Origin: a virus
Lineage: Duplodnaviria > Heunggongvirae > Uroviricota > Caudoviricetes
IMG/VR virus record: IMGVR_UViG_3300032053_000007
Length of the DNA: 64,000 bases
Strand: one strand, 5' to 3'
The notes under the pieces are model-generated. The model made no database searches. It was not told where the DNA came from and worked only from the letters and a program-made list of their open reading frames with translations. Positions 56,527-64,000 of the stretch are shown here, in pieces. The translations under genes and the position numbers were made by a program. The number at the start of each line of letters is the position of its first letter. Within the stretch, counting starts at the first letter, position 1.

Positions 56527-56792
56527 ACCCGCCATTGCTGGCGCGAACGGGCTTCGAACTTGGTTGTACTTTGAGTTACATTGAATATACATCATGCGTT
56601 ACTATGTAATATACGCTTAACGCGAACAACTCCAACTCTCTCAAACATACGTTCTCAGCGCACTATATATACGTTTGCTTTTTCCTGTACGACACATCTA
56701 CAAGTCAATGGTCGAACTGTTGGTTTAAGCTACACTTTAATGGAAACGTTTATAAGAGAGGGTGCGAACGTTATTCTAAGGACGTGAAACAC

Positions 56793-57287
56793 TTGAACGA
56801 TAAGGACGAATTGACACGACTTGAAAACTTAGCGCAAAAACTAGGTTTTACCGTGATATATAATTTAACCCTTAGCTGGAATCATTCGAAGGTTTCCTTT
56901 TATCCATGTCGAAGAATCCTTATCGGAACTAAGAACTATTCACCAAATTCAAATATCGGTTATGGAACCATACCTGATAAGGTTAAAGCGTTAATTCTGA
57001 ATCACGAGCTAGGGCATATTGTCGTATATGAAACGCTTTACCCTAACATGGATTTAGCTGATTTTTGTCTCTCAAATGATTCAAAATTCTTGGTACAACA
57101 AGAGATGTACGCATGGAAAACCGCAATAAATGAATCGCTCGATGATAATTCTGACCCTCTAGTGTTGGAATTGATACAAGAATCGATAAACCAATACATT
57201 TATTGTGAGTATATCGGAACATGCACAATAGAATCTCAGCAAGAACTACAGCAAAAAATAATTACTAAGTTTACACGTACAAAATAG
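56793..57287 (+). CDS. small HExxH metallopeptidase-like protein
   Basis: LNHELGHIVVYE; TTG 56793 six nt after AAGGACGTG (track used GTG 56784). Confidence 0.55.
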   Translation: MNDKDELTRLENLAQKLGFTVIYNLTLSWNHSKVSFYPCRRILIGTKNYSPNSNIGYGTIPDKVKALILNHELGHIVVYETLYPNMDLADFCLSNDSKFLVQQEMYAWKTAINESLDDNSDPLVLELIQESINQYIYCEYIGTCTIESQQELQQKIITKFTRTK

Positions 57288-57340
57288 TACACAAAGGTTT
57301 ATTAAGGACGGTGCTATTATACTCTTAAGGACGTGGAAAG

Positions 57341-57634
57341 ATGGTCGAAATAAAAATCTATGTCGTAACAACGGAAAACCCAGATAAGACAAAACTAGAT
57401 TCTGTGAAAGTTCAACTATGCGGTGCATTCGGCGGTTTAACCGTCATTAATAACTGTGAGGGTCTATGGCTAGATAACGGAAAATTATACGCGGACAACG
57501 TACAGATTTGGCTCATAGAAAGTTCAACTGTGGTTTCTCCTGAACAAATAATGAAATATGGTGAAGACTTAAAGGCAATATGCAAACAAAAATCTCAAAT
57601 GATAAGCATAAACGGACACCCATATTTTGTTTGA
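57341..57634 (+). CDS. hypothetical protein
   Basis: own TATA, tatact initiator region, AAGGACGTG SD. Confidence 0.6.
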   Translation: MVEIKIYVVTTENPDKTKLDSVKVQLCGAFGGLTVINNCEGLWLDNGKLYADNVQIWLIESSTVVSPEQIMKYGEDLKAICKQKSQMISINGHPYFV

Positions 57635-57645
57635 AACAATTTCCC

Positions 57646-57655
57646 TCTTTTTTTG
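57646..57655 (+). terminator. oligo-T terminator
   Basis: ctctttttttg after stop 57634. Confidence 0.45.
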
Positions 57656-57708
57656 ATATAAACCTTTATATAGAACGCTGACATTATACTATTGAAGGAC
57701 GTGTGAAC

Positions 57709-58302
57709 GTGGAACACTTACAACTTAGCGCAATATGCGAACACTTAACACAACTAGAGGACACGGACGCGGAAGGACTCTTCGATTTAAGCCTAGAATC
57801 ACAAGTGCAGTTCTTAGAATTCTTTAAACACTATAAGGACTGTGAAAAAGGCAAGGCTAAAGGAAAGGGCTTTGGAAATTGCTGGAAATTGAATTCTAAG
57901 CGTAATCCTAACGTATTTACCCATTTAGAGGCACAATTTAAGAGATTAGTGGACGACTTTAACCTAGAGTTGAACCATGAGGTACGCATAAAAGTTAAGG
58001 ATAGGTGCAACCGCTGGCACATTTTCAAATTAGACTTCTTTGACCCTAAGACCCAAATTGACATAGAAATAAGCCCAAATTGGCACAAGAATTACCTTTT
58101 AGTCGTAAGACGTGACGCATTGCGTAGAAGGCTCTTAAAACGGGTCGGGATTCGAAGTCTAACGGTTCCTGTAGTATATAAGGGCAAACACGGACACATA
58201 GATTATATAAGAGCGAAACGAATAATAAAGATAATCAAAAGTGCAACCGTCAGCCCTAACTCACTAGACTACTATACAACTAATAAAGAGGTGAATGAAT
58301 AA
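57709..58302 (+). CDS. endonuclease-fold protein (DUF559/Vsr-like, weak)
   Basis: KLDFFDPKTQIDIEISPNWH resembles DF..(h)IE.DG..H core; GTG 57709 after AAGGACGTG. Confidence 0.4.
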   Translation: MEHLQLSAICEHLTQLEDTDAEGLFDLSLESQVQFLEFFKHYKDCEKGKAKGKGFGNCWKLNSKRNPNVFTHLEAQFKRLVDDFNLELNHEVRIKVKDRCNRWHIFKLDFFDPKTQIDIEISPNWHKNYLLVVRRDALRRRLLKRVGIRSLTVPVVYKGKHGHIDYIRAKRIIKIIKSATVSPNSLDYYTTNKEVNE

Positions 58303-58535
58303 TGGAATATTTCGGAAATTGTCCCAAATGCAGACACCACACGATAGTTAAATCCGTGAAGGCTATAAAAAGTGCAACTGCGAGACTACCACAGCGTACA
58401 AGCGAATGTATCAACTGCGGAACAACTGCAAGAATAACCATAATCGGCGAAATAGTTAAACTTGCAGGGATAACTAACGTGGTCAACCCAGAGTTTGCAA
58501 CGGTAAACAGACTTGTGGTGCGCCTGTGGAGTTAA
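58302..58535 (+). CDS. zinc-ribbon protein
   Basis: CPKCRHH..CINCGT; TAATG overlap. Confidence 0.55.
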   Translation: MEYFGNCPKCRHHTIVKSVKAIKSATARLPQRTSECINCGTTARITIIGEIVKLAGITNVVNPEFATVNRLVVRLWS

Positions 58536-58537
58536 AC

Positions 58538-58577
58538 CACCGTGACATGCACGGTGCAACTTTCCCTTCTTTTTTTA
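58538..58577 (+). terminator. hairpin plus T-run terminator
   Basis: caccgtg-acatg-cacggtg ..cttcttttttt. Confidence 0.55.
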
Positions 58578-58642
58578 GTACAACTTTCTATTAACTGAAA
58601 ACTTAGCGAATTTTTAATTTTCTTCCCTGTTCGAATATTGTC

Positions 58643-58762
58643 TTCGATTCACCACAATGACGTGCTATTGAACCATACTCTCCATTGTGATGAATTTGTG
58701 TCCCACTTCGAGGTATGGTCTTTTCCCATGCTTTTCTTCGAATGTTGACTTCGATTCATCAC
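58643..58762. repeat. TTCGATTCAYCAC iteron-like repeats with hairpin
   Basis: ttcgattcaccac 58643, gtgatgaat 58687 (inverted), ttcgattcatcac 58750; related set at 59592-59780. Confidence 0.5.
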
Positions 58763-58830
58763 GAATTTTGGAAACATTGTTGGCATGGATGGAACGGTAC
58801 GGCGGAGCCGTGCGGCGAACTTAGCATTTT

Positions 58831-58846
58831 TTAATCAACTGATTAA
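58831..58846. promoter_or_regulatory. TTAATCA-NN-TGATTAA palindrome
   Basis: ttaatcaactgattaa, 20 nt upstream of TATA 58867. Confidence 0.55.
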
Positions 58847-58909
58847 CTCAGGACTGAGTAGGAATGTTTATAAGACTCGATGCTATTATACTCTTAAGGA
58901 CGTGGAATA

Positions 58910-59170
58910 ATGGCAAGAATCTTTAAAGTGAATGAAACCACAGAAATACTCTGTGAATTTGTGAGCACAAGAAGCGGTTTTAGACATGATGCAAGGCTGT
59001 TCAAAAATGGCAATGAATACGAAAAGGCTAAAGTATGCTACGTAAACAGAACATGGGAGAAATTTGACTTCGAAACCGTCATACATAAACTGCTAGAAAA
59101 GACGGACGCTTTGACCGAAACAGAAAAAGAGCAATTCAGAACCGAATTAAACAACAAATACGGCTATTAA
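58910..59170 (+). CDS. hypothetical protein
   Basis: TATA 58867, AAGGACGTG SD. Confidence 0.6.
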   Translation: MARIFKVNETTEILCEFVSTRSGFRHDARLFKNGNEYEKAKVCYVNRTWEKFDFETVIHKLLEKTDALTETEKEQFRTELNNKYGY

Positions 59171-59206
59171 CCCCCCTACCCCCTTTTTGTTTTTTTGGTG
59201 ATAATC

Positions 59207-59308
59207 ATGGAACAAAAAAGACGAATTCGGACACAACCGAAATTAAAAGGAAATCTCGGCAAACTGTTTAATAAGCGATTTTTTGAACTGCTCGAACAGA
59301 ACCGATAA
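59207..59308 (+). CDS. basic mini-protein (33 aa)
   Basis: SD TGGTGATAATC-ATG; flanked by T-run terminators. Confidence 0.4.
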   Translation: MEQKRRIRTQPKLKGNLGKLFNKRFFELLEQNR

Positions 59309-59445
59309 AACTCCCTCTTTTTTTGACTTGCAAACTTAGCGGAAAAACAAATTTTAACTTAATATATACCTATGTGCGTTACACCCCAGACAGTTACCCC
59401 CAGAAGTTCAACTTTCGGTTGACCACAACCTTTATATAGGTCGCC

Positions 59446-59497
59446 ATACCGAAACGTTTATATACTACCCTATACCGAAACCCTTATATACTACCTA
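59446..59497 (+). repeat. two 26-bp tandem repeats each carrying a TATA box
   Basis: ataccgaaacSYttatatactaccYt x2. Confidence 0.55.
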
Positions 59498-59591
59498 TTT
59501 GACTTCATAGTTCCTGTTCTAACCATACAACACCGTCACTTATAAACCTTCCTATTTAACTGTTCAACAATAATACAGTTAGTACATTGTG

Positions 59592-59780
59592 TTCGATTCA
59601 TCACAACGATGAGAGCGAAAATTTCGTTCGAGAAAATATACATGAAAACACCATAGTACGAGTAACCACTTCGAAAACACACATATGGGGCAATAAAAAG
59701 ACCATTGTGGTGAATCGTAGCCAATTTCGAAGCATGGGAAAAGCATGGTAAATTCTCGAATCGTGACTTCGATTCACCAC
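59592..59780. repeat. TTCGATTCAYCAC iteron-like repeats (second set)
   Basis: 59592 (+), 59707 (inverted), 59768 (+); central ttcgaagcatgggaaaagcatgg resembles reverse complement of 58716-58752. Confidence 0.5.
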
Positions 59781-60024
59781 GCATAGGAACAAAAGTTCAC
59801 CGTGAGTTCAACTGTGGGTGACATTCAATTCAAGTGATGCGTGTCCATGTAATATACGCTTAACGCGAGGCTCTGGTTATGAACGTGGGCACGGGACTAT
59901 TTAAACGTTTGCTTTTAACTGTTTAACGTGACTACACATGACCATATAAACTGTATATTTGACCTACACTTTAAAGCCAACCTTTAAATACTACGTTCGA
60001 CACGTTACCTAATGGTGAACAAGG

Positions 60025-60498
60025 ATGCCAATAAAAACCGTGGAATTTGTCTTATATCTCTCGGACGTTGTAAACTTAGGCTTTTCAGAATTGACGATTC
60101 AAAAAATTAAGCAGAGATTGATAGACCACTTTTCATTTGGTACGAATTTACCAGAGAATTACGTTGTAATTTATCCTCATATTGTAGCGTTTGAGATGCA
60201 CAACGAGGATAAAATTGTTCGCAAATTTAACTATACAGTTCTGCATGAATTGATACACGGATTACTTGAAGAGAGTGAACTTAATACAGAAGAGATGTGC
60301 CACGCTTGGAGTATGATACTAACCGATGACCGTGAATCAAATGTAAGCGGTCAAGGACACCACTATTATCAAATGTTAAAAGGACGAACAGAAATCGTTG
60401 TAAACGAAGAACCCAAATTCGAGGCGGAAAAGCTAAACGCGGCGCGGAATTTGTCCAGAATGCGATTAGTGAAACACCATGAGCTAACAGGACTTTAA
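60025..60498 (+). CDS. small HExxH metallopeptidase-like protein
   Basis: VLHELIHGLLEE. Confidence 0.55.
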   Translation: MPIKTVEFVLYLSDVVNLGFSELTIQKIKQRLIDHFSFGTNLPENYVVIYPHIVAFEMHNEDKIVRKFNYTVLHELIHGLLEESELNTEEMCHAWSMILTDDRESNVSGQGHHYYQMLKGRTEIVVNEEPKFEAEKLNAARNLSRMRLVKHHELTGL

Positions 60499-60581
60499 AC
60501 CGCGAAGTATATAAACCTTCTGGTTTTACCCAAACCTTTATTAATGACCGTGCTATATTATATCTCAAGGATGTTGAAAAA

Positions 60582-60884
60582 ATGGCAAACGTATTTAGTG
60601 TTAAACACTACGTAAAAATTGCCGAGCTAATAGGCAAGGCAAAAGACTTAGACGAATTTTACAGATTTTTCGTAAAGTTCGCACAAGCCGAAAACCCAAA
60701 ATTCTCTATTGAGAAGTTCTATAAAGCGGTTCAGAAAAGCCACCAATTCGGCGGAATCGGGTGCGGTGCGCCCGAATTAGCCGAGAAACCCCAAAAAGAG
60801 TGGGAATTTCCTCAAGAGGCTATAGAATCGGACGGTCAACCTGACGAAGCCCAAGAATGGCACGATTTCGACCCTGACGCTTAA
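60582..60884 (+). CDS. hypothetical protein
   Basis: own TATA (tttattaa); track ORF. Confidence 0.6.
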   Translation: MANVFSVKHYVKIAELIGKAKDLDEFYRFFVKFAQAENPKFSIEKFYKAVQKSHQFGGIGCGAPELAEKPQKEWEFPQEAIESDGQPDEAQEWHDFDPDA

Positions 60885-60901
60885 AGCGTCCCTCTTTTTT
60901 T
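60876..60901 (+). terminator. hairpin plus T-run terminator
   Basis: gacgc-ttaaa-gcgtc cctcttttttt (overlaps stop). Confidence 0.55.
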
Positions 60902-60992
60902 ATCCATAACATGTAACATAACATGTTTTCCATGCTTTGACCATGCCTGACATGACATAAAGGTTTATATAAGTCGGTTGATATAGTAGTAC

Positions 60993-61166
60993 ATGGCGAG
61001 AAAAATGAACACACACAACAACACACAAGTAAAAACTCATGTCGGGACTTTTCAAGTGAAATACCACCGTGACGGCGGAAAAGTCGGCAGTACGAGCGTG
61101 ATTATCCGAAAGAAGCTCGTTTATGAACCCTATGACATTTTAGCCTATAAATTCGGAGCAAAATAA
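60993..61166 (+). CDS. hypothetical small protein (57 aa), leaderless
   Basis: ATG 22 nt after TATA 60964-60971. Confidence 0.45.
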   Translation: MARKMNTHNNTQVKTHVGTFQVKYHRDGGKVGSTSVIIRKKLVYEPYDILAYKFGAK

Positions 61167-61168
61167 AA

Positions 61169-61291
61169 ATGCCAAAAACTTGTTTAGGAAATTTGACTCG
61201 TGACTGTTCTGGGACATGTCCAGATTATCAGGAATGCCTTAAAAAATACATGGACATGGAAATAAGAACGTCAGAACATAACAGAGATTAA
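61169..61291 (+). CDS. Cys-rich mini-protein (40 aa)
   Basis: C..C..C..C; ATG 2 nt after previous stop. Confidence 0.4.
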   Translation: MPKTCLGNLTRDCSGTCPDYQECLKKYMDMEIRTSEHNRD

Positions 61292-61522
61292 TGCAACCGA
61301 GGCGGTTCACGGGAAGTTTAACTTTAAGTTGGTTTCTAATCATGGTATCCGTGTCCATGTAATATCCCGTTTTTTCTCGCGCTGAGGTTGTCGCCCTCAA
61401 TAGTAACGTGTGCATCGAGGTATATAAACGTTTGCTTTCAAGTGTAGAACAGGACTACAGTTTAGCTACACAACAACGTTTATAAGTCACGGTGATATAA
61501 TATAGTTAAGGACGTGTGTGAC

Positions 61523-62035
61523 ATGGACGCATTAAAAAAAGCTCTTGCGGTTAAGCGTAAAATGATTCACCCAGAACGACAAAATTTTTGTCTAAACAAA
61601 CTTAGTGAATTCTCGAAACGCTTAATATTAGGAATTCAAGACACACCTTATATTTTGCTTCCTGACCAAAAACAAACCTATTCTATCGATTTGAACCTTA
61701 AGCAATGCCGAAAAGCTAAACGGGACGGTTTACAGAACGTAATTCGTGCATCATGGTCAAATCTGCCTTTTAGAAATAAAAGCGAATTTGATATTATTTA
61801 TGCTGATAATTTCGGCGATAGAAAAGACATTAACGAAATAGCGCACGAAGTAAATCGACTGAAAACCAAAAAGCTCATCGTTTTAGGTGCGGCTAGAGCA
61901 TTCAGGAAGCCAGCGAAGCGTAAATGGAAATATCTGCTCAAAACGAGGTTCCCTAAGCTAAAGCTCCAAGAATTACGGAAGGACGGCGGTTATTGTTCCA
62001 CGGTGCAATGGACAGCAATACTGTATAAGCGTTGA
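61523..62035 (+). CDS. hypothetical protein
   Basis: trimmed to ATG 61523 after AAGGACGTG; NLPFRNKSEFDIIYAD only weakly methyltransferase-like. Confidence 0.55.
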   Translation: MDALKKALAVKRKMIHPERQNFCLNKLSEFSKRLILGIQDTPYILLPDQKQTYSIDLNLKQCRKAKRDGLQNVIRASWSNLPFRNKSEFDIIYADNFGDRKDINEIAHEVNRLKTKKLIVLGAARAFRKPAKRKWKYLLKTRFPKLKLQELRKDGGYCSTVQWTAILYKR

Positions 62036-62091
62036 ACACTTAAATAGGAACGTTTATATAGCTCGCCGCATACGTTACTATTGGTGAAAAA

Positions 62092-62223
62092 ATGACCAAC
62101 AACAAAAAGCCCAAAAAGTTGAGCACGGAAGACTTTAACGCGATATTTGACGCGATAAGGAACACGGAAAAACACCCAAAAATAAAATTCTCATGTCGAA
62201 CGTTCAGAGGAGTCAGGGACTAA
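62092..62223 (+). CDS. hypothetical mini-protein (43 aa)
   Basis: TATA 62053, SD TGGTGA, T-run after stop. Confidence 0.45.
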   Translation: MTNNKKPKKLSTEDFNAIFDAIRNTEKHPKIKFSCRTFRGVRD

Positions 62224-62310
62224 AACCCTTTTTCTTTTGTAGTTCTGTTGTACACTTGAATCGAAAGGTATATAAGGAACGGTGTACACATACTATTGAG
62301 GGAAAAACTC

Positions 62311-62538
62311 ATGGCAAGGACAATAAGGGTTAACGTGGTTGTGTGCTACAGAAATAGGCTTACAAGAATGTTTAAAAACGTTGAACTTGACATAACACAC
62401 ATAAACGAACTTAATAACCGTAACATGTCAAGAGCGTTCGAAGAACAATACCCTAAACTCGTGGCAAAAATCCCAACGTGGACGGACAACCGAGGGTTTA
62501 CTTTTAGGGCTAACTTCGAATGTGAACCGCTCTACTAA
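62311..62538 (+). CDS. hypothetical protein
   Basis: trimmed to ATG 62311; TATA 62266; T-run after stop. Confidence 0.55.
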   Translation: MARTIRVNVVVCYRNRLTRMFKNVELDITHINELNNRNMSRAFEEQYPKLVAKIPTWTDNRGFTFRANFECEPLY

Positions 62539-62758
62539 AACCCCAATTTTTTGTGTATTTCTGTTCTACAGTTAAAAGCGAAGGTTTAAATAGGTCGGCG
62601 ATATACTATATTTGTCGAGCGCGGGACTCGGCGGCGCGAGCTATCGGATATTACATGGGCACGGACGGCAAGAATCCACCGAAACGTTTATAAGCAACCG
62701 CCTCACCAGAACCTTTATAAGTCTCTGTGCTATACTATTCTATAAGGACTGTGAAAAC

Positions 62759-63052
62759 ATGATAGACATGAATAAGGTCAGTATGGCGTTAACTCTAACA
62801 AACGCGAAGTTAAACGCTCTCTCAACAGAAAAATACAACACACTAAAAGCCTCTGTTGACGTACCACTTGAACCGCTGGAAATAGTGAAATATCAGAATC
62901 TAAAAGCTATCGCCCAAATAGAACAGAAAATTTCACTCGAAGTTGCACTCTGGATATACACGGCAATTGAGCATTGGGCAAAAACGACACTAGGAGAAAA
63001 AATTCTGATAACTCAAATGATAGCTGGCTGGGCTGGGATTCTTCGCAAATAA
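62759..63052 (+). CDS. hypothetical protein
   Basis: track ORF 62612.. trimmed: its 5-prime part covers two TATA boxes and a GC-rich hairpin. Confidence 0.55.
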   Translation: MIDMNKVSMALTLTNAKLNALSTEKYNTLKASVDVPLEPLEIVKYQNLKAIAQIEQKISLEVALWIYTAIEHWAKTTLGEKILITQMIAGWAGILRK

Positions 63053-63412: not shown

Positions 63413-63573
63413 TTCCTAGTGATTAGCCTCTAGGTAGAATATAGCTAACTGATGAACCTTATAGGCTATGGTTTATAGGGTCAAGGTTGTTGCACTACAC
63501 TTGCAAGCTAGAGGCTATCACACAATAATACTTTTAGTACAACTAATTAGTTACACTTTTAGTTATACCAAAT

Positions 63574-63751
63574 CCTTATATACTAGCCTGTTTCACTTGT
63601 GCACAACACTACTATATAAACCTTTCACAACCCTTATATACTAGAGCCTCACTCACGAGCACAGCACTACTATATAAGGCTTACGCAACCCTTATATACT
63701 ACACCCTACCCCCTACCCCTATTTAAACTTATCGCAACGCTTATATACTAG
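63574..63751. repeat. 58-bp tandem repeats carrying inverted pairs of TATA boxes
   Basis: ccttatatactag at 63574, 63632, 63690 (and 63739); ctactatataa at 63610, 63668. Confidence 0.6.
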
Positions 63752-64000
63752 ACCCGCCCCTCTACCCCCTTATAAAGCTATCGGACAATTCTCAGTTGCA
63801 CTTTCGGTTGCACCCACAAGAGCACTAACAATTATCACAAAAAGTACAACTTTCAGTTACATCAACAAGTCCCCCGCCAGTTCCACCCACAGGCGAATCA
63901 GAGGTAATATAGTCCCCCCCTAAACACAGGAATTCGATTTTGGTGGATGGGACTAAGCTGGGTAAATTGCCCTATGTTTCAACTGGGTCATGATGTTTCA

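What the first reader, a model, noticed from the sequence alone, without database searches (positions are those of the whole stretch)
58643..59780. Iteron-like TTCGATTCAYCAC repeats and long hairpins in two inverted blocks flanking gene 58910
The 13-mer occurs at 58643, 58750, 59592 and 59768. Its complement occurs at 58687 and 59707.

Some copies form extended hairpins, for example gattcaccacaatg (58646) with cattgtgatgaat (58683).

The centres of the two blocks appear related by reverse complementation: cttcgaggtatggtcttttcccatgc at 58716 and ttcgaagcatgggaaaagcatgg at 59726.

Two inverted repeat blocks bracketing about 1 kb (58910..59170 and 59207..59308) look like a small invertible or mobile segment, or like a replication or partition site.
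Basis: seen in the sequence. Interest (0 to 1): 0.55.

Follow-up and report, generated by a model that had tools for sequence, protein, structure and literature searches.

The report
Conserved repeat triplets in phage spacers
Two non-coding stretches of an uncultivated ~152-kb phage each carry three copies (forward, reverse, forward) of a ~40-base unit found nowhere else; they keep one orientation in every assembly examined and do not move, so they are most likely clustered recognition sites or hairpins, not an invertible or mobile segment.

Summary
The repeats are real and far beyond chance. Six copies of a 32-45-nt unit (invariant core ATTCAYCAC) lie in two non-coding blocks, A at 58620-58770 and B at 59578-59785. 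No other copy occurs in the 64-kb window, IMG/VR, INPHARED or Rfam.

The blocks are not mirror images. Both read forward, reverse, forward. The "inverted centres" are the 5' extension of the unit, carried by U3(+) in A and U5(-) in B. In each block the reverse/forward pair folds as a ~90-nt three-tier imperfect palindrome (z about -4).

Eleven related metagenome contigs all show the same orientation, and I found no recombinase nearby. The genes between the blocks are swappable cassettes. Block B is lineage-specific. Block A persists in relatives whose flanking genes are ~80% identical, and has a second allele in which all three units changed together while keeping the core.

Block A lies just downstream of a free-standing Vsr/EDxHD-like nuclease gene paired with a Zn-ribbon gene, at the edge of a recombination mosaic.

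Best reading (about 0.4): a cis-acting cluster of recognition sites, operator- or iteron-like. Rivals are plus-strand RNA hairpins, sites tied to the neighbouring nuclease, and recombination scars. The function is not demonstrated.

The parts
58620..58661 (+). Unit U1 (core TTCGATTCACCAC at 58643-58655)
   Evidence: the repeat finder D1. nhmmer E=2.6e-8. Identical in L004, L015 and L017; one change in L022.
58682..58720 (-). Unit U2, a degenerate reverse copy (core GTGATGAAT at 58687-58695)
   Evidence: nhmmer E=2.9e-5. Pairs with U1 over 13 bp with 1 mismatch, and with U3. Its core carries a GA>AC change in L004 and L015.
58718..58767 (+). Unit U3 with the long 5' extension TCTTTTCCCATGCTTTTC (core at 58750-58762)
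   Evidence: GTTGACTTCGATTCATCACG is invariant in all window-type (W-type) lineages.
58678..58772 (.). H_A, the ~95-nt three-tier imperfect palindrome formed by U2 and U3
   Evidence: DNA fold -13.8 kcal/mol, z=-4.4, 0 of 200 shuffles as good. The same architecture holds in L017, L022, L026 and L002 (z -2.4 to -6.0) and is weakened in L004 and L015. It has 4-6 G.U pairs on the + strand against 0-2 on the - strand in 5 of 7 lineages.
58628..58825 (.). Block A, the conserved non-coding module (U1, spacer, U2, U3 and 3' tail)
   Evidence: Core is 86-88% identical to L015, L017 and L022, whose flanking genes are 68-89% identical. A second allele (L2-type) occurs in L002-type genomes and in L026.
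58600..58618 (+). Left copy of the ~19-nt direct repeat AACTTAGCGAATTTTTAAT that flanks block A (right copy at 58818-58835)
   Evidence: Read from the sequence. The motif AAACTTAGCG is itself recurrent: 16 hits against 4.5 expected. Its meaning is uncertain.
58831..58846 (.). Palindrome TTAATCAACTGATTAA, the 3' border of block A and the start of the next promoter-like module
   Evidence: 24 copies in the window against 1.1 expected. Conserved in most relatives examined; altered or missing in L017 and L022.
58863..58909 (+). Promoter-like module (T box AATGTTTATAAG, TGCTATTAT, Shine-Dalgarno AAGGA) of the 86-aa gene
   Evidence: Member of a family of roughly 35-40 clear copies in the window.
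58910..59170 (+). 86-aa gene between the blocks. It is a cassette gene and is not coupled to the repeats.
   Evidence: Exact protein on 21 contigs. A conserved family that also occurs in tightly packed contexts without repeats. AlphaFold2 pLDDT 86, four strands plus two helices, only weak PUR/Whirly-like matches.
59207..59308 (+). 33-aa basic microgene MEQKRRIRTQPKLKGNLGKLFNKRFFELLEQNR, preceded by Shine-Dalgarno GGTGA
   Evidence: Conserved at 75-97% amino-acid identity in L004, L015 and L026, and not called in L001-L010.
59568..59610 (+). Unit U4 (core at 59592-59604). Its 5' part is degenerate.
   Evidence: nhmmer E=9.4e-7.
59701..59746 (-). Unit U5, a reverse copy with the long 5' extension (core complement at 59707-59719)
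   Evidence: I1, I8, I9. nhmmer E=2.8e-7. Similarity to U1 extends into the spacer.
59742..59785 (+). Unit U6 (core at 59768-59780)
   Evidence: nhmmer E=7.5e-8.
59698..59788 (.). H_B, the ~90-nt three-tier imperfect palindrome formed by U5 and U6
   Evidence: DNA fold -17.2 kcal/mol, z=-4.2, 0 of 200 shuffles as good.
57703..58302 (+). 199-aa Vsr/EDxHD-like nuclease gene, probably a free-standing homing endonuclease, upstream of block A
58302..58535 (+). 77-aa CxxC...CxxC Zn-ribbon gene whose start overlaps the nuclease stop codon
   Evidence: Follows the nuclease gene in the relatives down to 69% nuclease identity (L015, L017, L022, L025, L026); the protein after the L018 nuclease does not look related. 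Weak Ogr-like hit, E=0.026.
58538..58576 (+). Hairpin CACCGTG-ACATG-CACGGTG followed by a C-rich stretch and T-run. This terminator-like end of the nuclease/Zn-ribbon unit precedes block A.
   Evidence: Sequence. The loop differs and the stem is kept in L004 and L002.

Best explanation
Blocks A and B are fixed, cis-acting non-coding modules in the gene-cassette (hyperplastic) region of an uncultivated ~152-kb phage.

Each block is a triplet (forward, reverse, forward) of one ~32-45-nt unit. In this lineage the unit reads [TTTTCCCATGC] TTCGAAT-nTTGnC-TTCG-ATTCAYCAC [AATG]. The reverse/forward pair of each block forms a ~90-bp imperfect palindrome, and the third copy lies 40-110 bp upstream of it.

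Most likely the units are recognition sites for a sequence-specific nucleic-acid-binding factor, as in an operator or iteron cluster. A dimeric or multimeric factor would occupy the palindromic pair, and the upstream copy would act as an auxiliary site. The resulting complex would sit in the spacer between the terminator of the nuclease/Zn-ribbon gene pair and the next promoter module (palindrome, T box, -10).

Shown: the anatomy, the fixed orientation, the restriction to this locus, the conservation of the unit sequence, the concerted allelic change, and the independence of the two blocks.

Inferred: that a protein binds the units, which protein it is, and what the complex does (promoter control, nuclease recognition or replication).
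For: 1. All six copies keep a 9-13-nt core in both orientations and in both blocks, while the spacers of A and B are unrelated. So the unit is the conserved entity, not a larger fold.
2. U1 and U3 are nearly invariant across W-type lineages, whereas the DNA between U2 and U3 varies freely. Block A's core is 86-88% identical where the flanking genes are 68-89%.
3. A GA>AC double change in the U2 core (L004, L015) breaks pairing with both U1 and U3 yet is tolerated. Sequence matters more than pairing.
4. In the second allele (L002-type genomes, L026) the 5' two-thirds of all three units changed together: TCGAA became CAC(A/G) and CTTCG became yCAC(T/G). TTG and TTCAYCAC were kept. This is the pattern expected for sites that share one reader.
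5. More distant relatives carry a different repeat family (TTTTATGCCACGGGTGACTGA, both orientations) at the same place, as with lineage-specific iterons or operators.
6. The U1-U3 spacing is held at 106-108 bp despite indels between them.
7. Evidence for a structural RNA is weak: no Rfam hit, a positive (penalising) RNAalifold covariation term on both strands, and modest single-sequence z-scores.
Against: - No binding protein has been identified.
- The adjacent nuclease and Zn-ribbon proteins are 99-100% identical in genomes that carry different block-A alleles. They do not co-vary with the 5' part of the unit.
- L002-type genomes combine an L2-type block A with a W-type block B, which is awkward for a single reader of the whole unit.
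- The U1-U2 spacer (ACGTGCTATTGAACCAT) is also conserved, which a pure site-array model does not predict.
- The three-tier fold-back is maintained across alleles and shows a G.U bias to the + strand in block A, which favours an RNA reading.
- The region is a recombination mosaic, so some of the 'conservation' may reflect recent exchange and not constraint.
Confidence: 0.4

Rival explanations
1. Cis-acting RNA hairpins on + strand early transcripts. H_A and H_B would be long irregular stem-loops acting as processing or stability elements, like the RNase III sites between T7 early genes. Alternatively they could form an attenuator-like switch in which the upstream copy (U1 or U4) competes with U3 or U6 for pairing to the reverse copy.
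For: - The fold-backs are strong: z=-4.4 and -4.2 as DNA, and -5.3 down to -6.0 as RNA in the window and L026.
- The three-tier architecture is kept although the middle tier differs between alleles (TTCGAG:TTCGAA against CTTGTGAA:TTCACGAG).
- The apical loop changes completely in L026 while the stem is kept.
- H_A has 4-6 G.U pairs on the + strand against 0-2 on the - strand, and is 6-11 kcal/mol more stable on + in 5 of 7 lineages.
- All genes are on the + strand.
- Each block allows two mutually exclusive pairings.
Against: - The RNAalifold covariation term is positive on both strands.
- The 'compensatory' changes trace to a single W/L2 split and follow automatically from concerted change of inverted copies.
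- The GA>AC change in U2 breaks the basal stem in L004 and L015 (z -2.5 and -0.7).
- H_B shows no + strand G.U bias (1 against 3).
- U1:U2 is more stable on the - strand.
- The block follows a terminator-like hairpin and T-run and precedes a promoter, so transcription through it is unproven.
- No Rfam family matches.
Confidence: 0.25
2. Sites tied to the neighbouring free-standing EDxHD/Vsr-like nuclease. The palindromic units would be the recognition, cleavage or immunity region of the dimeric 199-aa nuclease, with or without its Zn-ribbon partner. The W and L2 alleles would then be cleavage-sensitive and cleavage-resistant variants that set the boundary of homing-driven exchange.
For: - I-Bth0305I is a homodimer with a pseudopalindromic target inside a ~60-bp footprint (PMC3239194).
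- The nuclease/Zn-ribbon segment is 99-100% identical in backgrounds that differ by 12-28% on both sides, and the right edge of that patch coincides with the left edge of block A.
- Nuclease genes are reported to mark boundaries of exchange between phages (PMC10055350).
- In four of the five relative groups the nuclease module is followed by a repeat-rich spacer.
Against: - The same nuclease allele sits next to both block-A alleles.
- Block B has no nuclease gene next to it.
- L015 has another gene inserted between the module and block A.
- Repeat-rich spacers are common throughout this part of the genome, so the adjacency may be incidental.
- Nuclease activity is not shown.
Confidence: 0.12
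3. Replication origin or partition site. The units would be iterons or centromere repeats bound by an initiator or centromere-binding protein, with two sets flanking a gene as in the P1 incC/incA arrangement.
For: - Direct and inverted repeats occur in two clusters with conserved ~107-bp spacing.
- Distant relatives have lineage-specific repeat families at the same locus.
- GC skew changes at about 52-54 kb.
- The adjacent palindrome TTAATCAACTGATTA fits the IHF consensus WATCAANNNNTTR (my reading of the sequence).
Against: - No Rep, helicase-loader, ParA/ParB or TubZ/TubR gene is nearby.
- The 86-aa gene between the blocks is a cassette found elsewhere without repeats.
- Block B is dispensable.
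- There is no DnaA-box cluster and no marked AT-rich unwinding stretch at the blocks.
- The skew change lies 5 kb away.
Confidence: 0.08
4. Functionless by-products of recombination. The blocks would be scars or palindromic duplications left by the promoter-module-mediated cassette shuffling that pervades this region, kept similar by gene conversion and recent exchange and not by selection.
For: - The region is a mosaic.
- The window differs from L003 by a 2.06-kb deletion between paralogous promoter and 5'-gene segments.
- Block B is present or absent among close relatives.
- Parts of block A resemble promoter-module pieces: GAGGTATGGTCTTTTC against the C element, and GACGTGCTATTGA against GGACGGTGCTATTAT.
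- Many other inverted module copies exist at 54-64 kb.
Against: - Conservation within block A is strongly uneven, with units invariant and spacers free.
- Block A is retained in every lineage with 76% or more nuclease identity.
- The two alleles keep the same architecture and core.
- The C-element profile does not detect the units (best E=1.5).
Confidence: 0.1
5. One reading: the two blocks are inverted repeats bounding an invertible or mobile ~1-kb segment.
For: U1 and U5 form a 40-nt, 75% complementary inverted pair 1043 nt apart. A ~19-nt direct repeat flanks block A.
Against: - The 11 contigs inspected all share one orientation.
- No recombinase or transposase was found.
- The blocks have the same polarity and occur independently.
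- The content between them varies from 1 to 4 genes through homologous deletion or insertion, not inversion.
- No copies occur elsewhere.
- Where block B is missing it is replaced by unrelated DNA, not by a clean empty site.
Confidence: 0.02
6. The units are the starts of tiny ORFs. Every good copy carries TTG or GTG followed by x-(S/T)-(I/L/F)-H-H.
For: TTG or GTG lies at a fixed position in U1, U3, U4, U5 and U6 and in the L2-type units. U1 and U4 differ by three third-position synonymous changes. TCG, ACG and ACT all encode Ser or Thr.
Against: - There is no Shine-Dalgarno sequence, although real genes here have AAGGA or GGTGA.
- By my hand count over the first 20 codons, variable sites are spread evenly over the three codon positions across lineages.
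- Frameshifts after about codon 20 occur in L017 and L022.
- There is an in-frame stop in U2 of L022.
- The ORF from U1 varies between 20 and 71 codons across lineages, and the ORF from U6 is only 7 codons.
- An alternative genetic code is not supported.
Confidence: 0.03

Closest known systems
Iteron or operator clusters that flank a gene (for example P1 incC/incA iterons around repA; arrays of direct and inverted heptads bound by omega of pSM19035). Cited from general knowledge.
   Same: - Several copies of one short unit in direct and inverted orientation.
- Two clusters about 1 kb apart.
- An invariant core with lineage-specific variants.
- Different repeat families at the same locus in distant relatives.
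   Different: - No initiator or centromere-binding gene was identified.
- The units are long (32-45 nt) and widely and unevenly spaced (about 40-110 nt between neighbouring copies; 107 and 176 nt between direct copies), not contiguous.
- The gene between the clusters is an unrelated, swappable cassette.
- One cluster is dispensable.
RNase III processing hairpins between phage T7 early genes. Cited from general knowledge.
   Same: A family of related, long, irregular stem-loops with internal loops in the intergenic spacers of an early, single-strand-transcribed gene region. Block A shows a G.U bias to the coding strand.
   Different: - There is no evidence of transcription or cleavage.
- Each hairpin is accompanied by a third, competing copy.
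- The arm sequences are more conserved than pairing alone would require.
- Covariation statistics are not supportive.
PeSL cassettes (promoter-early stem-loops) of T4-type phages (PMC2839356, PMC4122927)
   Same: Small repeated regulatory modules in hyperplastic regions rich in ORFan genes. Recombination between repeated promoter modules explains the 2.06-kb difference between the window and L003.
   Different: The TTCGATTCAYCAC units are not the phage's promoter modules. They lack the T box and -10, and the C-element profile does not detect them. They occur at one locus only, not genome-wide.
Free-standing homing endonuclease loci and their targets: EDxHD family I-Bth0305I (PMC3239194); nuclease genes at boundaries of exchange (PMC10055350)
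   Same: - A 99-100% identical nuclease patch in diverged backgrounds.
- A patch boundary at the edge of block A.
- Palindromic sites of the kind a homodimeric nuclease would read.
   Different: - The target of this nuclease is unknown.
- The same nuclease allele neighbours both block alleles.
- A target made of three dispersed units is not a described arrangement.
- The gene is not inside an intron or intein.
Invertible promoters, invertons and shufflons. Cited from general knowledge.
   Same: Inverted repeats bracket about 1 kb that contains a small gene.
   Different: The repeats are only 75% identical, no invertase was found, and a single orientation appears in all assemblies.

Membership tests
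Invertible DNA segment (inverton or shufflon) | Near-identical inverted repeats at both ends | tested here: not met
   The best bracketing pair, U1/U5, is 40 nt and 75% complementary. The blocks as wholes have the same polarity.
Invertible DNA segment (inverton or shufflon) | Both orientations present in populations | tested here: not met
   All 11 distinct contigs inspected, from independent metagenomes (21 contigs are on record), have the same orientation. Raw reads could not be examined.
Invertible DNA segment (inverton or shufflon) | Site-specific recombinase encoded nearby | tested here: not met
   Pfam and PHROGs gave no recombinase hit for the ORFs from 56784 to 63052 or for the cassette genes of the relatives.
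MITE or small non-autonomous mobile element | Multiple dispersed copies in the genome or in other genomes | tested here: not met
   There are no further units in the 64-kb window. IMG/VR gave 0 hits, JGI metagenomes gave only this phage, and GTDB gave one chance hit inside a gene. The other ~88 kb of the genome was not available.
MITE or small non-autonomous mobile element | Terminal inverted repeats, target-site duplication and clean empty sites | tested here: inconclusive
   A ~19-nt direct repeat flanks block A (58600-58618 and 58818-35), but it is part of a recurrent motif. No empty site for block A was seen. Where block B is absent it is replaced by 360 nt of unrelated DNA.
Iteron-type replication origin | Adjacent initiator (Rep) gene, AT-rich unwinding element and DnaA/IHF sites | tested here: not met
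   No Rep-like domain was found. DnaA boxes do not cluster at the blocks. GC content at 58-60 kb is unremarkable. An IHF-like palindrome is present, but it is a genome-wide motif.
Iteron-type replication origin | Three or more similar repeats with conserved phasing | tested here: inconclusive
   There are four direct and two inverted copies. The U1-U3 spacing is 106-108 bp in every lineage that carries block A. The U4-U6 spacing is 176 bp.
Partition centromere (parS, parC, tubC) | ParA/ParM/TubZ NTPase and a centromere-binding protein in the same operon | tested here: not met
   None within +/-5 kb.
Described structured RNA family (Rfam 15) | Match to a covariance model | tested here: not met
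   There are no hits at gathering score in the window. At E<=1 over 54-64 kb nothing falls in the blocks.
Structured RNA in general | Statistically supported covariation in the helices | tested here: inconclusive
   Seven sequences were available, representing about five lineages and one W/L2 split. The covariation term was +2.9 on the + strand and +0.9 on the - strand. 5-9 pairs show double changes, but others are broken.
PeSL-like promoter/terminator cassette | Contains a promoter consensus and a terminator stem-loop, and is dispersed through hyperplastic regions | tested here: not met
   The units lack the phage's T box and -10. The C-element HMM gave a best E of 1.5. The units occur at one locus only.
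CRISPR-like mini-array or solitary repeat units | Near-identical repeats of 28-37 nt at regular 60-75-nt spacing in one orientation | tested here: not met
   The copies are 72-81% identical, lie in mixed orientation, and have spacings of 107, 842 and 176 nt.
EDxHD/Vsr-like homing endonuclease (the neighbouring 199-aa gene only) | Vsr-like PD-(D/E)xK fold with conserved catalytic Glu/Asp/His/Asp | tested here: met
   [not shown]
EDxHD/Vsr-like homing endonuclease (the neighbouring 199-aa gene only) | Site-specific cleavage and biased inheritance (homing) | not testable with these tools
   The only indirect evidence is a 99-100% identical patch at 57776-58475 (97% at 58476-58575) inside flanks that are 71-92% identical.

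The most novel reading that the evidence does not exclude
Block A, with block B as a recent copy, may be the cognate DNA element of the adjacent free-standing Vsr/EDxHD-like nuclease and Zn-ribbon gene pair. It would be a three-unit palindromic recognition or immunity region whose two alleles (W and L2) decide which genomes are cut. That would fix the boundary of homing-driven gene-cassette exchange in this phage lineage. Such a target architecture has not been described for any homing endonuclease family.
Probability: 0.12. Interest if true: 0.65.

Novelty: new member of a known kind. Interest (0 to 1): 0.35.

Why it matters
If the units are recognition sites, they mark a regulatory or nuclease-recognition node. 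That node sits exactly where small ORFan gene cassettes are gained and lost in a large, uncultivated phage lineage with unusually long conserved spacers.

The two alleles show concerted change in all three units inside otherwise near-identical DNA.

As it stands, the finding is a well-documented conserved non-coding element of unknown function. It is useful for annotating this phage group but is not a surprise in kind.

Tried and rejected
- **Alternative genetic code** (TGA or TAG reassigned) to explain the low coding density. Removing any stop codon raises ORF coverage about equally on both strands. Rejected.
- **Micro-ORFs starting in each unit** (M-x-S/T-I-H-H). There is no Shine-Dalgarno sequence and no third-position excess (hand count), and frameshifts and a stop occur in relatives. 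Rejected.
- **tRNA-like or T-loop resemblance of TTCGAAT/TTCGATT.** ARAGORN and Rfam found nothing.
- **Coupling of the repeats to the 86-aa gene.** The family occurs in packed contexts without repeats, and its fold gives only weak PUR/Whirly-like matches (E>0.1). Not coupled.
- **TCGA (TaqI-type) site avoidance as the cause of the W-to-L2 change.** TCGA occurs at the expected frequency genome-wide. Rejected.
- **Units as diverged copies of the promoter C element.** The resemblance is visible by eye, but the HMM does not support it.
- **DnaA-box reading of TTCAYCACA.** It matches the consensus at 7 of 9 positions, and canonical boxes do not cluster at the blocks. Left as unsupported.
- **Searches that returned nothing.** INPHARED DNA; phage tblastn with the nuclease; IMG/VR by protein and by three DNA patterns.
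- **The single GTDB hit** (a Zixibacteria MAG from Lake Pavin sediment). It lies inside a 648-aa ORF with no other unit nearby. I expect about 0.07 chance hits for this pattern, so I treat it as chance and not as a host clue.
- **CRISPR mini-array, σ54-type enhancer architecture and integron attC readings.** Considered from the anatomy and dropped, because the spacing, orientation or consensus does not fit.
Full report
**1. What is there**

The 13-mer TTCGATTCAYCAC occurs exactly at 58643, 58750, 59592 and 59768, and as a complement with one mismatch at 59707. No other match with fewer than two mismatches exists in the 64-kb window.

The repeat finder reports four direct copies of 32 nt. When I aligned the six copies with flanks, the unit came out at about 45 nt: [TTTTCCCATGC] TTCGAAT nTTGnC TTCG ATTCAYCAC [AATG].

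A profile built from the six copies finds them with E = 3e-5 to 3e-8 and finds nothing else in the window. The local alignment score between the blocks is 39 forward and 48 reverse, against 16.7 +/- 2.2 (maximum 26) for shuffles.

Two details need correcting. The copy at 58687 (U2) is degenerate, matching 9 of 13 core bases. The two blocks are also not mirror images.

- Block A reads U1(+) 58620-58661, U2(-) 58682-58720, U3(+) 58718-58767.
- Block B reads U4(+) 59568-59610, U5(-) 59701-59746, U6(+) 59742-59785.

Both blocks therefore have the order + - +. The exact 14-nt reverse-complement match of the 'centres' (58720-58733 against 59730-59743) is the 5' extension of the unit. In block A that extension belongs to the forward copy U3, and in block B to the reverse copy U5.

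In each block the divergent pair (U2/U3 and U5/U6) folds as a ~90-nt three-tier imperfect palindrome. The z-scores are -4.4 and -4.2, and 0 of 200 shuffles fold as well.

**2. Context**

All ORFs of 100 aa or more that look real lie on the + strand. The window encodes an RNA ligase, a KaiC-like ATPase, an SPFH protein and a CobS-like AAA protein.

It has no DNA match in INPHARED and only about 25% protein identity to known phages. The same sequence lies on metagenome contigs of up to 151.8 kb that continue into dCMP deaminase and ribonucleotide reductase genes. I take this to be an uncultivated large phage.

The 54-64 kb part is gene-poor and full of repeated intergenic motifs. Two motif families are genome-wide:

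- The palindrome TTAATCAnnTGATTAA has 24 copies against 1.1 expected.
- A promoter-like module has several dozen copies: C element TTGAGCATGGnnnTTCTA, T box AAsGTTTATAwr, GGACGnTG, a -10-like TAtnaT, then a Shine-Dalgarno sequence.

Block A sits between two such features. Upstream is the terminator-like hairpin and T-run of the preceding gene pair (58538-58576). Downstream is the next palindrome and promoter module (58831-58909).

**3. Comparative evidence**

The exact 86-aa protein is on 21 contigs, of which ten were returned as loci. The pattern scan of JGI metagenomes added one further distinct contig. All have the same orientation.

The content between block A and the 86-aa gene varies. 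It is nothing in the window, a 100-aa gene in L004, and up to three or four genes in L003 and L007, including a 160-aa gene on the minus strand.

The window equals L003 minus 2.06 kb, with the endpoints in paralogous promoter and 5'-gene segments. This is PeSL-like modular shuffling (PMC2839356).

Block B is absent from L004 and L010. There, window positions 59584-59964 are replaced by about 360 nt of unrelated, non-repetitive DNA. Block B is also absent from L015, L017 and L026.

Block A is present in every relative whose neighbouring 199-aa protein is at least 76% identical (L015/16, L017, L022-24, L026). Its core is 86-88% identical where the flanking genes are 68-89% identical.

Conservation inside the block is very uneven. 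U1, U3 and the U1-U2 spacer are almost invariant, whereas the stretch between U2 and U3 varies.

**4. Two alleles**

L002-type genomes and L026 carry a second form of block A. In it, the 5' two-thirds of all three units changed together: TCGAA became CAC(A/G), and CTTCG became yCAC(T/G). TTG and TTCAYCAC are kept.

Complementarity between U1:U2 and U2:U3 is preserved (TCGAA:TTCGA becomes ACAC:GTGT). The fold-back persists, with z = -2.7 in L002 and -6.0 in L026.

L002 combines this allele with a window-type block B. More distant relatives (L025, L027) carry an unrelated repeat family, in both orientations, at the same locus.

**5. The neighbour**

I-Bth0305I is a homodimer with a pseudopalindromic target inside a ~60-bp footprint (PMC3239194).

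The nuclease gene overlaps the start of a 77-aa Zn-ribbon gene, which follows it in the relatives down to 69% nuclease identity.

Between the window and L002, the segment 57776-58475 is 99-100% identical and 58476-58575 is 97% identical. The left flank is 73-92% identical and block A is 71-72%. The locus is therefore a recombination mosaic, and the right edge of the identical patch coincides with the left edge of block A. This fits nuclease-marked exchange boundaries (PMC10055350).

**6. Weighing the mechanisms**

*Invertible or mobile segment.* This is rejected. The inverted pair is only 75% identical, I found no recombinase, one orientation appears everywhere, the blocks are independent of each other, and there are no copies elsewhere.

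*Micro-ORFs and recoding.* Both are rejected.

*Replication origin or partition site.* The defining companion genes are missing.

*RNA hairpin.* Points in favour:
- strong fold-backs;
- a preserved three-tier architecture;
- a free apical loop;
- a + strand G.U bias in H_A.

Points against:
- the covariation terms are positive;
- the basal stem is broken by GA>AC in L004 and L015;
- H_B shows no bias;
- the block lies between a terminator and a promoter;
- the arm sequences are more conserved than pairing would need.

*Recognition-site cluster.* The unit is conserved in both orientations and in both blocks while the spacers are unrelated. Loss of pairing is tolerated. All three copies changed together. 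Distant relatives have a different family at the same locus. Together these fit a cluster of recognition sites for a sequence-specific factor best. I put this at about 0.4.

Its main weakness is that no reader has been identified. In addition, the adjacent nuclease and Zn-ribbon proteins do not co-vary with the allele.

The link to the neighbouring nuclease is the most novel reading that remains open, at about 0.12.

**7. Verdict**

This is a real, conserved, locus-specific non-coding repeat module of unknown function in a novel phage lineage. It is a new member of the known kind 'clustered direct and inverted repeat cis elements in phage intergenic regions'. Interest is moderate (0.35).

Noticed in passing
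window, 24 sites, e.g. 5097, 20979, 25370, 42165, 44897, 47281, 52306, 55336, 58831: The perfect palindrome TTAATCAnnTGATTAA occurs 24 times against 1.1 expected. It is usually preceded by a T-run and lies 60-110 nt upstream of gene starts, just 5' of the promoter-like module. It looks like a genome-wide operator or activator site.
   Followed up: partly
window, several dozen sites, e.g. 981, 5155, 25032, 33528, 42673, 54470, 55053, 57661, 58863, 61475: There is a recurrent promoter-like module: C element TTGAGCATGGnnnTTCTA (roughly 28 copies, all before 56 kb), T box AAsGTTTATAwr, GGACGnTG, and TAtnaT 11-12 nt after the T box, followed by a Shine-Dalgarno sequence and ATG. The box-to-(-10) spacing recalls T4 middle promoters, and the T box also resembles an archaeal TATA box. 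The host domain is unresolved.
   Followed up: partly
[not shown]
   Followed up: partly
window 59207-59308: A 33-aa strongly basic microgene (MEQKRRIRTQPKLKG...), preceded by Shine-Dalgarno GGTGA, is not among the genes called in L001-L010. It is conserved at 75-97% amino-acid identity in L004, L015 and L026. Its N-terminus looks arginine-rich, like the RNA-binding motif of lambda N.
   Followed up: partly
window 58863-59058 against L003:3750-3945 and L003:5809-6004: The window lacks 2.06 kb that is present in L003, L007 and L009: an 85-aa paralogue of the 86-aa gene, a 160-aa gene on the minus strand and a 94-aa gene. The deletion endpoints lie in paralogous promoter and 5'-gene segments that are 77% identical.
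   Followed up: yes
window 58910-59170: The 86-aa protein belongs to a conserved family (30 clusters, invariant GF.H...NRTWE). Its confident model (pLDDT 86) has four strands and two helices. Only weak matches to PUR-alpha, Whirly and PC4-like single-strand-binding folds were found (E>0.1).
   Followed up: partly
L025:2827-3235; L027:3548-3989: Relatives with 64-69% identical nuclease carry a different repeat family, TTTTATGCCACGGGTGACTGA, at the equivalent locus. It has 3-4 copies in both orientations.
   Followed up: no
window 56552-56755, 59795-59990, 61305-61475: Three paralogous ~200-nt leader regions, each containing a ~40-nt inverted repeat built from T-box-like motifs, precede the 167-aa, 157-aa and 173-aa genes. 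The first two proteins carry HExxH motifs.
   Followed up: no
window about 52-54 kb: GC skew is positive (0.1-0.3) up to about 52 kb and near zero or negative afterwards, although gene orientation does not change. Two independent contigs (L002 and L005) start at about window position 52.3 kb.
   Followed up: no
window 59424-59502 and 63568-63767: There are tandem arrays of T-box-like motifs (CGAAACGTTTATATACTACC) at 26-nt spacing with no following gene start.
   Followed up: no
window 58599, 58817, 59332, 37465, 56825: The motif AAACTTAGCG is over-represented (16 hits with up to 1 mismatch, against 4.5 expected). It tends to lie between a gene-end T-run and the next TTTTTAAT. Two copies flank block A.
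   Followed up: no
L014:6836-6860: The only match to the 25-nt unit pattern in 596 Gb of GTDB genomes lies inside a 648-aa ORF of a Zixibacteria MAG from Lake Pavin sediment. I judged it a chance hit, since I expect about 0.07 such hits.
   Followed up: yes
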